IMG/VR virus record: IMGVR_UViG_3300036987_000310
Location: 288,001-352,000 of that record
Strand: one strand, 5' to 3'
Source of the DNA: a virus
Taxonomy: Duplodnaviria > Caudoviricetes
DNA: 64,000 nt
Shown: in pieces, positions 48,141 through 48,230 of the stretch
How the letters are laid out: every line of letters starts with the position of its first letter
Position numbering within the stretch: the first letter of the stretch is position 1
Position numbers and translations under genes: made by a program
Notes under the pieces: generated by a model
The model's input: the letters and a program-made list of their open reading frames with translations, nothing else
Told to the model about the DNA's origin: nothing
Databases searched by the model: none

Positions 48141-48230
48141 GCCTCTGTAGCCTAGTGGTCGAAGGCAGGGGACTTTAAATCCCATGCGGGCGAAAGCTCG
48201 CCGCCGCGGGTTCGAATCCTGCCAGAGGCG
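48141..48230 (+). tRNA. Type II (Ser-like) tRNA with UUA anticodon (ochre suppressor), no encoded CCA
   Basis: Acceptor GCCTCTG/CAGAGGC, G73; D arm GCCTAGTGGTCGAAGGC; anticodon arm GGGA-CTTTAAA-TCCC; variable stem GCGGGC-GAAA-GCTCGC; T arm GCGGG-TTCGAAT-CCTGC. Confidence 0.9.

What the first reader, a model, noticed from the sequence alone, without database searches (positions are those of the whole stretch)
48141..48230. Serine-type tRNA with UUA anticodon (ochre suppressor) in a standard-code phage
Seen: the cloverleaf is intact and the loop C-T-T-T-A-A-A gives anticodon UUA, which pairs with UAA. The D arm matches bacterial tRNA-Ser (GCC.AG.GG..GAAGGC), with G73 and a 6-bp variable stem. 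One change from Ser(UGA) gives this anticodon. Yet many genes here end in TAA, so the code is not reassigned. Known: described recoded phages mainly reassign UAG or UGA. Inference: regulated partial Ser read-through at UAA (and UAG by wobble), or disruption of host termination.
Basis: partly seen in the sequence, partly recalled or inferred. Interest (0 to 1): 0.8.

Follow-up and report, generated by a model that had tools for sequence, protein, structure and literature searches.

The report
Stop-reading tRNA that unlocks its own operon
A 377-kb phage with the normal genetic code keeps a well-formed tRNA that reads the stop codon UAA, and its one conserved target appears to be a UAA in the tiny leader of its own operon, where read-through would stall the ribosome and switch on a tRNA-hydrolase-like gene set.

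Summary
Window 48141-48231 (+) is a 91-nt long-variable-arm tRNA with anticodon UUA, and the phage (377 kb, 39 tRNAs) uses the standard code. It is not a fresh mutant. Four other independent assemblies hold the same tRNA with an invariant TTA anticodon, and 16 of 26 stem pairs show compensatory changes in the four aligned.

The Ser assignment is uncertain. The body scores closest to tRNA-Ser, but the family has a 4-nt linker and C2-G71. It also has A73; only this copy has G73.

I found no TAA-interrupted genes, no conserved read-through extension and no TAA avoidance.

The tRNA ends an accessory operon: promoter, mini-ORF M-T-H-F-L-TAA, then in frame M-P-R-G-P-P (RGPP is a published ribosome-arrest motif). 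The RGPP-coding RNA pairs with the Shine-Dalgarno of the next gene. Two unknown genes, a Pth2-like hydrolase and a small ORF follow, then the tRNA.

Among 80 viral loci with this Pth2-like gene, 63 carry a suppressor tRNA within 3 kb. In all 15 loci with both a leader and a tRNA, the leader stop matches the anticodon (TAG/CUA 11, TAA/UUA 3, TGA/UCA 1).

Most likely the tRNA is the key of a suppression-gated arrest-peptide switch. The scan had already noted amber versions on other DNA. I found no paper describing it. Nothing is experimental.

The parts
46528..46556 (+). Sigma-70-type promoter of the operon: TTGACA, 17 nt, TACCAT, with TG before the -10 hexamer. It ends 6 nt before the leader ATG.
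   Evidence: 10 of 12 matches. A TTGAC-type -35 box lies 30-50 nt before the leader ATG in most homologous modules, with a recognisable -10 read by eye in the six studied closely. L104, L151 and L154 show none.
46563..46580 (+). Leader mini-ORF ATG ACG CAC TTC TTG TAA (M-T-H-F-L-stop). The TAA at 46578-46580 is the proposed target of the tRNA.
   Evidence: The same M-T-H-F-L-TAA occurs in L166 and M-(T/M)-H-F-L-TAA in L167-169. G5 has ...C-H-L-TAA.
46581..46598 (+). In-frame M-P-R-G-P-P directly after the TAA (R codon at 46587). RGPP is a ribosome-arrest motif.
   Evidence: P-R-G-P-P is kept between G0 and G5 through three synonymous changes. Arg is coded by CGN or AGR in other modules. RGPP is a published robust arrest motif (PMC12992588).
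46588..46649 (+). Hairpin in which GGUCCUCCG (the G-P-P codons) pairs with CGGAGGA, the Shine-Dalgarno of geneA at 46640-46645.
   Evidence: MFE -35.9 kcal/mol, z -5.47, 0 of 200 shuffles fold as well. The MFE folds of the other modules put the same segment in a stem with the downstream purine-rich stretch.
46650..47012 (+). geneA, 120 aa, helical, function unknown (weak DUF5739 match). First gene under the leader.
   Evidence: Model pLDDT 86 with no informative fold match. Homologous in L073, L075, L076, L077, L166-L171.
47009..47536 (+). geneB, 175 aa, acidic, function unknown. Its start overlaps the geneA stop (ATGA).
47529..47855 (+). Pth2-like peptidyl-tRNA hydrolase homologue, 108 aa. 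Its start overlaps the geneB stop. It has no early in-frame stop in this lineage.
   Evidence: Pfam PF01981, 38 bits against a cut-off of 23. PDB Pth2 1wn2, E 0.002..
47891..48136 (+). Small ORF, 81 aa, ending in ...V-M-E-E. Its stop lies 4 nt before the tRNA.
   Evidence: 44% identical in G5.
48141..48231 (+). Class II tRNA with anticodon UUA (TTA at 48175-48177), discriminator G73, no encoded CCA.
48175..48798 (-). 2H phosphoesterase (LigT/Acb1-like), convergent with the tRNA. Its last 18 codons run antisense through the tRNA, and its TAA stop is the reverse complement of the anticodon.
   Evidence: Kept next to the tRNA in G5 and in the P0005 contig.

Best explanation
The gene encodes a functional UAA-reading (ochre suppressor) tRNA. 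It acts as the trans-acting key of a self-contained operon.

Proposed mechanism:
1. The operon mRNA starts at or just before a five-codon leader, M-T-H-F-L-UAA.
2. Without suppression, the ribosome terminates at the UAA. A hairpin keeps the Shine-Dalgarno of the first gene paired with the RNA that codes for G-P-P.
3. When the tRNA is made, matured and charged by host enzymes, and beats the release factors at that UAA, the ribosome reads on into M-P-R-G-P-P.
4. It stalls on the RGPP arrest motif and holds the hairpin open.
5. geneA is then translated, and through overlapping stop/start codons so are geneB and the Pth2-like hydrolase.

The tRNA is transcribed from the same promoter at the 3' end of the operon.

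What is shown by sequence comparison:
- the tRNA and its anticodon are under selection;
- the linkage to the Pth2-like gene is conserved;
- the leader stop type matches the tRNA anticodon;
- RGPP is conserved at the protein level;
- the predicted fold sequesters the Shine-Dalgarno.

What is inferred:
- charging of the tRNA. My estimate for this copy is Ser about 45%, Tyr about 25%, otherwise Leu, another amino acid or uncharged;
- actual read-through and actual stalling;
- the direction of regulation (activation);
- what the switched-on proteins do. One possibility is that they clear peptidyl-tRNA or limit the cost of suppression.
For: 1. The tRNA is real and selected.
- ARAGORN and Rfam both call it.
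- The same 91-93 nt tRNA, with the CTTTAAA loop (TTTTAAA in L166) and an invariant TTA anticodon, occurs in G5, L166, L042 and L043.
- On the four-sequence alignment, 99% of cells are paired and 16 of 26 pairs changed on both sides. None of 500 shuffles reached these values.
- G5 has only 4 tRNAs, and one of them is this one.

2. The operon is conserved.
- The order geneA, geneB, Pth2-like, small ORF, tRNA, then LigT on the other strand, is syntenic in G5, L166 and the P0005 contig.
- It is absent from wider relatives L067-L071, so it is an accessory island.

3. The link between the Pth2-like gene and suppressor tRNAs is general.
- 63 of 80 viral loci with a homologue (33-71% identity) have a suppressor tRNA within 3 kb.
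- 67 of the 249 tRNAs in those loci are suppressors: 58 cta, 6 tta, 3 tca.
- By contrast, 1 of 39 tRNAs in this genome is a suppressor.

4. The leader.
- TAA followed in frame by P-R-G-P-P is present in G0, G5, L166 and L167-169.
- The PRGPP codons differ at synonymous sites.
- The codon after the TAA is CTA or CTG in G5 and L167-169, so restarting there is unlikely.
- The leader stop type equals the tRNA anticodon in 15 of 15 loci with both: 11 amber, 3 ochre, 1 opal (L087: M-K-H-H-L-TGA-I-H-T-C-R-G-P-P with two tca tRNAs).
- The leader pattern is about 11 times enriched upstream on the gene strand compared with control DNA: 11 hits in 229 kb against 3 in 713 kb.

5. The hairpin.
- In G0 the RGPP-coding segment pairs with the geneA Shine-Dalgarno, z -5.47. 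In the five other modules studied closely the MFE fold puts the RGPP segment, or the bases just after it, in a stem with the purine-rich stretch before the geneA start, z -0.9 to -3.3. The folds look alike by eye.
- The distance from the R codon to the geneA start is 63-68 nt in all six loci.

6. RGPP is a published robust arrest motif that bacterial proteomes avoid (PMC12992588). It is rare in this phage's proteins: one R[GA]PP outside the leader in G0.
Against: - Nothing is experimental. Expression, CCA addition (none is encoded, and one search found no phage CCA-adding enzyme), charging, suppression and stalling are all unshown.
- In this genome the codon after the TAA is ATG. Termination followed by re-initiation could therefore produce M-P-R-G-P-P without any suppression.
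- RNAalifold on a MAFFT alignment did not recover the hairpin. The support comes from single-sequence folds, and one of the six has a weak z-score (-0.9).
- The three ochre cases belong to one clade and there is only one opal case. The covariation rests on about 13 lineages (roughly p = 0.006).
- For two amber cases (L100, L111) the tRNA is on the other strand or the leader is far away.
- A TAA leader with RSPP in place of RGPP (L170/L171) has no tRNA within 3.3-5 kb.
- Two family members of this tRNA (L042, L043) lie in short contigs without the module.
- A switch alone does not explain why the phage needs the tRNA and the proteins. About 20% of the phage's own genes end in TAA with no sign of protection.
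Confidence: 0.62

Rival explanations
1. General read-through tool. The tRNA's main job would be partial suppression of UAA, and perhaps UAG, across the infected cell. That would extend host proteins or disturb host termination, or make C-terminally extended phage proteins. The leader would then only be a gauge that adjusts the operon to the level of suppression. This is compatible with the best explanation as an added role.
For: A UUA anticodon with U33 and A37 should read every UAA it meets. The neighbouring Pth2-like gene, and in G5 a 181-aa RF-1-domain protein, fit with cleaning up after read-through. Authors of jumbo-phage papers have suggested host takeover (PMC8386662).
Against: - No conserved in-frame extension lies behind TAA. 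Stop codons of orthologues are not conserved: only 7 of 162 pairs are TAA/TAA.
- No gene in either genome is split by a stop relative to the other.
- Phage stop usage equals the genome's trinucleotide share: TAA 20% against 20.4%.
- There is no consistent back-up stop signal: p = 0.065 in G0, and the trend runs the other way in G5.
- The host is unknown, so host stop usage could not be compared.
Confidence: 0.2
2. Non-decoding role. The RNA would serve as a decoy or substrate, for example for host anticodon nucleases or for the neighbouring Pth2-like and 2H phosphoesterase enzymes. On this view the TTA anticodon is kept for recognition and not for reading codons.
For: It is flanked by two enzymes that act on tRNA or RNA ends. 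This genome also carries tRNA-like RNAs with non-decoding roles according to earlier scan notes. No CCA is encoded.
Against: The three-way match between leader stop codon and anticodon is hard to explain unless the tRNA decodes. The tRNA body is freely swapped between modules, class I in some and class II here, while only the stop-reading anticodon is kept. The loop is canonical, with U33 and A37.
Confidence: 0.08
3. Early stage of, or remnant of, a UAA reassignment in part of the genome.
For: Suppressor tRNAs in standard-code relatives have been proposed as a first step towards recoding (bioRxiv 10.1101/2021.08.26.457843).
Against: - ORFs under the standard code cover 92% of both genomes.
- Extensions after TAA are no longer than after TGA.
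- No TAA-split genes were found.
- TAA ends 17-20% of genes.
- A survey of 10,754 jumbo phages found none with TAA recoded (PMC13037316).
Confidence: 0.02
4. A decaying or accidental mutant copy of tRNA-Ser(UGA), or an assembly error.
For: A single base change separates TGA from TTA.
Against: TTA is kept in five independent assemblies that differ at many other positions through compensatory changes. The phage's own tRNA-Ser genes are quite different RNAs of 83-85 nt.
Confidence: 0.01

Closest known systems
Orphan suppressor tRNAs of standard-code jumbo phages: tRNA Sup:UUA of phage G (PMC12484599), tRNA-Sup-TTA of Klebsiella phage phiKp24 (PMC8386662) and the two CUA suppressors of Xanthomonas phage XacN1 (PMC5852040)
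   Same: A stop-reading tRNA in a very large phage whose genes use the normal code. No read-through target was found among the protein genes; the XacN1 authors state this explicitly.
   Different: Here the tRNA has a class II Ser-like body and lies outside the main tRNA cluster. It sits at the end of a Pth2-like operon whose leader holds the matching stop codon. I did not examine those published genomes for the same leader.
RAPP/RGPP arrest peptides that regulate a downstream gene (ApdA, ApdP, ApcA, the Streptomyces RGPP uORFs, SecM; PMC12992588, PMC10951233, PMC7897499)
   Same: An R-G-P-P motif is encoded just upstream of a gene whose Shine-Dalgarno is predicted to be paired. A stalled ribosome would free it.
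   Different: Known examples are longer secretory or membrane 'monitoring substrates', and their stall is relieved by the export machinery. Here the motif lies behind a stop codon after a leader of 3-15 codons. Access to it would depend on a suppressor tRNA. Stalling is not shown.
Suppressor tRNAs of stop-codon-recoded phages (crAss-like, Lak and the 'gemstone' clades; bioRxiv 10.1101/2021.08.26.457843)
   Same: A phage-encoded tRNA that overrides a host stop signal, possibly to time gene expression.
   Different: Those phages carry many in-frame TAG or TGA codons in late genes, and TAA recoding is not reported. This phage has no recoded genes, and the only conserved in-frame TAA is in a leader.
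Classical E. coli ochre suppressors (UUA-anticodon mutants of tRNA-Tyr, -Lys and -Gln). Named from my own knowledge, not checked in a paper here.
   Same: Anticodon UUA in an otherwise normal tRNA.
   Different: Those are laboratory mutants of cellular tRNAs. This one is a conserved natural gene with its own family features: a 6-bp variable stem with a GNRA loop, and a 4-nt linker.
Amber-gated Pth2 operons noted earlier in this scan on other phage DNA (e1-5391601, e1-5340016, e1-933198 and others)
   Same: The Pth2-like gene is homologous (50-61% identical), a suppressor tRNA lies next to it, and the leader has a stop followed by RGPP.
   Different: Here the stop is TAA and the anticodon UUA. 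The tRNA is class II. The Pth2-like gene itself has no early stop (M-T-D-K against M-T-TAG in L072).

Membership tests
tRNA (Rfam RF00005) | Cloverleaf with a 7-bp acceptor stem, D, anticodon and T arms, a 7-nt anticodon loop with U33 and a purine at position 37 | tested here: met
   59.5 bits against a gathering score of 29. ARAGORN cloverleaf. Covariation in 16 of 26 pairs.
Bacterial tRNA-Ser (class II, charged by SerRS) | Long variable arm with a stem of 5-7 bp | tested here: met
   6-bp stem with a GAAA loop, like native Ser tRNAs of two bacterial genomes.
Bacterial tRNA-Ser (class II, charged by SerRS) | Overall body and D loop (GGTYGAAGG) closest to tRNA-Ser | tested here: met
   Family model R1 scores native tRNA-Ser at 51-68 bits, Leu at 48-61 and Tyr at 55-57 in two bacterial genomes.
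Bacterial tRNA-Ser (class II, charged by SerRS) | Discriminator G73 | tested here: inconclusive
   G in this copy. A in all four relatives, including the closest, L166. All 12 native Ser tRNAs compared have G.
Bacterial tRNA-Ser (class II, charged by SerRS) | One unpaired base between variable stem and T stem; acceptor stem beginning G1-G2 | tested here: not met
   4 unpaired bases (CGCC) and C2-G71. The native Ser tRNAs compared have 1 base and start G-G.
Bacterial tRNA-Ser (class II, charged by SerRS) | Charged with serine | not testable with these tools
   Needs an aminoacylation assay or mass spectrometry of a read-through product. No class IIb or class Ib synthetase is encoded by the phage.
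Ochre suppressor tRNA | Anticodon UUA in a canonical loop | tested here: met
   Loop CUUUAAA in four of the five family members (UUUUAAA in L166). TTA is invariant in all five.
Ochre suppressor tRNA | Inserts an amino acid at UAA in vivo | not testable with these tools
   Supported only indirectly, by the match between leader stop type and anticodon in 15 of 15 modules.
Stop-codon-recoded phage (UAA reassigned) | In-frame TAA inside conserved genes; low coding density under code 11 | tested here: not met
   92% ORF coverage under code 11. No stop-split genes between G0 and G5. No excess extension after TAA.
RAPP/RGPP arrest-peptide leader | R-[AG]-P-P motif translated upstream of the regulated gene, conserved at the protein level | tested here: met
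   PRGPP is kept through synonymous changes and through CGN/AGR codon switches.
RAPP/RGPP arrest-peptide leader | Stall site placed so that a stalled ribosome opens a structure hiding the downstream Shine-Dalgarno | tested here: met
   Predicted only. The G-P-P codons pair with GGAGGA, z -5.47. The folds of the five other modules studied closely look alike, as do those by eye.
RAPP/RGPP arrest-peptide leader | Ribosome actually stalls at the motif | not testable with these tools
   Needs toeprinting or a reporter assay.
RAPP/RGPP arrest-peptide leader | N-terminal secretion or membrane signal ('monitoring substrate') | tested here: not met
   Only 5 codons precede the stop and 2 more precede RGPP.
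Pth2-like / suppressor-tRNA module of large phages (defined in this scan, not published) | Pth2-like homologue with a suppressor tRNA on the same strand within about 3 kb | tested here: met
   The tRNA starts 286 nt after the Pth2-like stop. 63 of 80 homologous loci have a suppressor tRNA on either strand, nearly all on the same strand.
Pth2-like / suppressor-tRNA module of large phages (defined in this scan, not published) | Leader with a stop of the type read by the tRNA, followed by RGPP | tested here: met
   TAA with UUA here. 15 of 15 matches overall.
Pth2-like / suppressor-tRNA module of large phages (defined in this scan, not published) | Early in-frame stop inside the Pth2-like gene | tested here: not met
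   M-T-D-K-L-Y here and M-A-E-K in G5. TAG lies at codon 3 in L072, L073 and L080, and early in L081.

The most novel reading that the evidence does not exclude
Large phages carry a portable translational switch in three flavours: amber, ochre and opal. A phage-encoded suppressor tRNA reads a stop codon in a mini-leader and drives the ribosome onto an RGPP arrest motif. This opens the ribosome-binding site of a Pth2-like operon. If so, it would be the long-missing target of the 'orphan' suppressor tRNAs seen in standard-code jumbo phages, and a natural arrest-peptide device whose input is a tRNA and not a secretion machine.
Probability: 0.55. Interest if true: 0.85.

Novelty: new variant of a known kind. 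Interest (0 to 1): 0.74.

Why it matters
Suppressor tRNAs turn up repeatedly in annotations of jumbo phages that use the normal code, and their purpose is an open question. The XacN1 authors looked for targets and found none. Here the ochre tRNA has a specific, conserved, matching stop codon in the leader of its own operon.

Homologous modules switch leader stop and anticodon together (TAG/CUA, TAA/UUA, TGA/UCA). This makes the question directly testable with a small reporter construct.

It would also widen the known uses of RGPP arrest peptides. It offers a compact natural part for synthetic biology, namely gene expression keyed to a suppressor tRNA. The biological purpose of the genes that are switched on remains unknown.

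Tried and rejected
1. Genome-wide TAA recoding. Rejected: coding density and the extension statistics are normal.

2. Conserved programmed read-through of a phage gene. The long in-frame extensions are simply neighbouring genes, and their stops differ between G0 and G5. No stop-split genes were found. A first six-frame version of this test was too noisy to use, because antisense frames of homologous DNA also aligned.

3. TAA avoidance or back-up stops. Stop usage equals the trinucleotide background, and no consistent signal appeared.

4. Phage-encoded release factor, TyrRS/TrpRS, class IIb synthetases or CCA-adding enzyme in this genome. None was found.

5. Similarity searches.
- DNA similarity to deposited phages: no match for the region.
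- The tRNA alone gave only short, uninformative matches to tRNA-Lys, -Leu and -Tyr.
- The first attempt to find relatives with the over-long 224-aa ORF found nothing.
- LigT relatives L001-L004 and relatives of the 772-aa protein L067-L071 lack the tRNA.

6. Pattern scans.
- The strict ochre-leader pattern in IMG/VR gave only G5 and three chance hits.
- L008, L009, L038-L041 and L045 matched the tRNA pattern but are not intact tRNAs.

7. RNAalifold on the leader hairpins failed, because the MAFFT alignment was not structure-aware.

8. The fold of geneA gave a confident helical model but no informative match in the PDB.

10. Early stop inside the Pth2-like gene, as in the amber modules: absent here.
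Full report
**The object.** ARAGORN finds one tRNA in the window, at 48141-48231 (+), labelled tRNA-Stop with anticodon tta. Rfam's tRNA model matches 48141-48230 at 59.5 bits. The cloverleaf has a perfect 7-bp acceptor stem and the loop CUUUAAA, with U33 and A37. It has a 6-bp variable stem capped by GAAA, four unpaired bases (CGCC) before the T stem, and discriminator G. No CCA is encoded. One G.A mismatch tops the anticodon stem.

**The genome and its code.** The window is bases 288001-352000 of a single 376,674-bp virus record with terminal repeats. 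It holds 39 tRNA genes. Thirty-seven lie in a cluster at 109-154 kb on the other strand. The UUA tRNA stands alone at 336 kb.
- Under the standard code, ORFs of at least 60 aa cover 92% of the genome.
- Stops are TGA 296, TAA 99 and TAG 90.
- In-frame extensions after TAA are no longer than after TGA.

The code is therefore standard. TAA is a minority stop but a real one.

**Conservation.** A 362,524-bp relative, G5 (IMG/VR 3300037608_000209), is complete and shows about 56% median protein identity over 162 reciprocal best pairs. It is syntenic around the tRNA and has the same 91-nt tRNA. G5 has only four tRNAs in all.

Further copies lie in L166, whose neighbouring geneA is 81% identical. Two more are in short metagenome contigs, L042 and L043.

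On the four-sequence alignment, 99% of pair cells are standard pairs and 16 of 26 pairs changed on both sides. None of 500 shuffles reached this, and slid controls fell to 36-48% paired. The TTA anticodon never varies; the loop reads CTTTAAA in four copies and TTTTAAA in L166. A mutated or decaying tRNA-Ser, and an assembly error, are excluded.

**Which amino acid?** I built a covariance model of the family (R1) and ran it on two bacterial genomes reached through a pattern scan.
- Native tRNA-Ser score 51-68 bits, tRNA-Leu 48-61 and tRNA-Tyr 55-57.
- The D loop (GGTCGAAGG) and the 6-bp variable stem with a tetraloop are Ser-like.
- The Leu D loop (AAYTGG) is clearly different.
- Every native tRNA-Ser compared has one unpaired base after the variable stem, G73, and an acceptor stem starting G-G. 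The family has four unpaired bases and C2-G71, or U2-G71 in one member.
- The family has A73 in G5, L166, L042 and L043. Only this copy has G73.
- A73 and a 3-4 nt linker are what the Tyr tRNAs in the same set show.

The phage encodes no TyrRS/TrpRS-type or class IIb synthetase. I therefore treat Ser as the single most likely identity for this copy, at about 45%. It is not established. A separate, canonical Ser-bodied tRNA(UUA) exists in a Pseudomonadota MAG (L044/L047), which shows that such tRNAs arise more than once.

**Search for targets among genes.** All results were negative.
- Stop codons of orthologues are not conserved: only 7 of 162 pairs are TAA/TAA.
- The only well-conserved in-frame 'extensions' are neighbouring genes that happen to share a frame, and their stops differ between genomes.
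- No gene in either genome is bridged across a stop by an uninterrupted gene in the other.
- Stop usage mirrors the genome-wide share of the three trinucleotides: TAA 20% of stops against 20.4%.
- Back-up stops after TAA are not consistently closer.

**The neighbourhood.** A sigma-70-like promoter lies at 46528-46556. After it, on the same strand, come:
- geneA at 46650-47012;
- geneB at 47009-47536;
- a Pth2-like peptidyl-tRNA hydrolase homologue at 47529-47855 (PF01981, 38 bits; PDB Pth2, E 0.002);
- an 81-aa ORF at 47891-48136;
- the tRNA, 4 nt further on.

The stops and starts of geneA/geneB and of geneB/Pth2 overlap. A 2H phosphoesterase (LigT/Acb1-like) converges from the other strand and overlaps the 3' half of the tRNA.

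The 224-aa ORF that first carried the Pth2 match is an artefact of a long open frame. Only the last 108 residues are conserved.

This block is present in G5, L166 and the P0005 contig. It is absent from wider relatives that share the flanking 772-aa protein (L067-L071). It is therefore an accessory island.

**Link between the Pth2-like gene and suppressor tRNAs.** Earlier notes of this scan described amber suppressor tRNAs beside Pth2-like genes in other phages. I tested that lead myself.
- A first search with the G0/G5 protein found nine other viral loci at 50-61% identity. Seven have a tRNA(CUA) downstream on the same strand, within 1 kb in six and about 4 kb in L075.
- A wider search with a ten-sequence profile found 169 loci, of which the best 80 were kept.
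- 63 of the 80 have a suppressor tRNA within 3 kb.
- 67 of the 249 tRNAs in those loci are suppressors: 58 cta, 6 tta, 3 tca.
- The suppressor tRNA bodies differ between loci: class I of 72-80 nt elsewhere, class II here. The stop-reading anticodon is what is kept.
- In four amber loci the Pth2-like gene has an early in-frame TAG: codon 3 in L072, L073 and L080, early in L081. In this phage and in G5 it has none.

**The leader.** Upstream of geneA, in frame with it, this phage reads ATG ACG CAC TTC TTG TAA ATG CCC CGT GGT CCT CCG, that is M-T-H-F-L-stop-M-P-R-G-P-P. G5 reads M-H-S-L-R-S-D-W-N-C-H-L-TAA-L-P-R-G-P-P.
- Between the two genomes, the P-R-G-P-P codons differ at three synonymous positions.
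- In G5 and L167-169 the codon after the TAA is CTA or CTG, so the motif can be translated only by reading through the stop.
- L166 has the same M-T-H-F-L-TAA-M-P-R-G-P-P.

Homologous modules with amber tRNAs have the same design with TAG. Examples are M-E-H-TAG-LHNS-RGPP (L072), MQIFGHLW-TAG-IRGLA-RGPP (L075), two-TAG leaders in L076, L077, L088, L095, L123 and L151, and others.

L087 carries two tRNA(UCA) and has M-K-H-H-L-TGA-I-H-T-C-R-G-P-P.

In all 15 loci where I could see both a leader and a suppressor tRNA, the stop type equals the anticodon: 11 amber, 3 ochre from one clade, 1 opal. Two amber cases are weaker (L100, L111). Counting about 13 independent lineages, a perfect match by chance is roughly 1 in 156.

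The leader pattern occurs 11 times in 229 kb upstream on the gene strand, against 3 times in 713 kb of control DNA from the same loci.

Arg is coded by CGN in most modules and by AGR in L123 and L154. The conservation is therefore at the protein level.

**RNA structure.** In this phage, GGUCCUCCG (the G-P-P codons) pairs with CGGAGGA, the Shine-Dalgarno of geneA. The MFE is -35.9 kcal/mol with z -5.47, and none of 200 shuffles folds as well.
- In the five other modules studied closely, the MFE fold puts the RGPP-coding segment, or the bases just after it, in a stem with the purine-rich stretch before the geneA start. By my reading that stretch is the Shine-Dalgarno. Their z-scores are -2.7, -0.9, -2.6, -3.3 and -2.2.
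- The ten further leaders fold alike by eye.
- The R codon lies 63-68 nt before the geneA start in all six.
- In most modules a TTGAC-type -35 box lies 30-50 nt before the leader ATG, with a -10-like hexamer that I read by eye. L104, L151 and L154 show none. The leader probably has little or no 5' untranslated region. This last point is inference.

**Model.** RGPP is a published, robust arrest motif that resists EF-P and is avoided by bacterial proteomes (PMC12992588). The simplest reading follows.
1. Without suppression, the ribosome leaves at the leader stop and the geneA ribosome-binding site stays paired.
2. With an active suppressor, the ribosome reads through and stalls on RGPP.
3. The stalled ribosome keeps the hairpin open, and the coupled genes geneA, geneB and Pth2-like are translated.

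The tRNA is transcribed from the same promoter, so protein output follows the tRNA's activity. The sequence relations are shown. Charging, read-through, stalling and the direction of control are inferred.

The function of the output genes is open. geneA gives a confident helical model with no informative fold match. The Pth2-like protein may recycle peptidyl-tRNA or limit the cost of suppression. This is speculation.

**Comparison with the literature.**
- Suppressor tRNAs with UUA anticodons are listed for phage G and for Klebsiella phage phiKp24.
- CUA suppressors are listed for XacN1, whose authors could not find targets.
- PTH2 in jumbo phages was noted as a possible ribosome-rescue factor (PMC7824862).
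- A survey of 10,754 jumbo phages found no TAA recoding.
- My searches found no paper linking suppressor tRNA, Pth2 and an arrest leader.
- The scan itself had already noted amber versions on other DNA, and UUA tRNAs in other giant phages.

What this window adds is the ochre version on a class II body. Together with the opal case, it gives the three-way match between leader stop and anticodon.

**Caveats.**
- In this genome an ATG follows the TAA, so re-initiation could bypass the tRNA.
- The consensus-structure program failed on the unaligned hairpins.
- One TAA-type leader, with RSPP, has no tRNA within 3.3-5 kb.
- L042 and L043 carry the tRNA without the module, in contigs of 1.2-1.5 kb.
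- About 20% of phage genes end in TAA without visible protection. The suppressor must therefore be weak, timed or tolerated.

Noticed in passing
window 48175-48798 (-): The 2H phosphoesterase (LigT/Acb1-like) ORF runs antisense through the 3' half of the tRNA. It stops at a TAA that is the reverse complement of the anticodon. Homology to relatives ends about 16 residues earlier. In G5 the gene ends exactly where the tRNA ends, without overlap.
   Followed up: partly
L046:1450-1995 (-) = G005 about 159997-160542: The relative G5 encodes a 181-aa protein with an RF-1 (GGQ) domain and only the tail of the PCRF domain, so it resembles ArfB or PrfH. This window's genome has no RF-1 domain match.
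   Followed up: partly
window 47891-48136 (+): The 81-aa ORF before the tRNA ends in ...V-M-E-E, and its G5 homologue in ...V-M-E-E too. This fits the shared C-terminal tag that other reports of this scan describe for about a fifth of this phage's proteins.
   Followed up: no
L044:5555-5644 (-) (Pseudomonadota MAG JBCBSF010000088.1): A canonical tRNA-Ser body (G1-G2-A3, G73, 1-nt linker, CCA encoded) with anticodon TTA in a bacterial MAG. It is a separate origin of a UAA-reading tRNA. Neither Pth2 nor an RGPP leader lies nearby.
   Followed up: partly
L038, L039, L040, L041 (metagenome contigs): Sequences identical to the 5' half of a Ser-type tRNA up to the loop CTTTAAA, then unrelated sequence. 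ARAGORN calls no tRNA. They could be tRNA fragments at integration sites or interrupted genes.
   Followed up: no
L070:13720-13805 (+), L072:2527-2608 (+), L078:4787-4860 (+): tRNA-Leu(UAA) genes recur in or near these modules. In one relative of this phage such a gene lies at the place where this phage has the UUA tRNA. The L078 tRNA has an odd 9-nt loop, so its reading register is ambiguous.
   Followed up: no
leaders in window 46563-46580, L087, L075, L076, L104, L158: The residues just before the leader stop are similar across modules (H-F-L, H-H-L, H-L-W, H-F-W, H-F-F). This may be a context that weakens termination.
   Followed up: no
G000 109-154 kb (outside the window): Several 'tRNA-Leu' calls in the main cluster are only 75-77 nt, so they lack the long arm. 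The set contains no tRNA-Tyr or tRNA-Trp.
   Followed up: no
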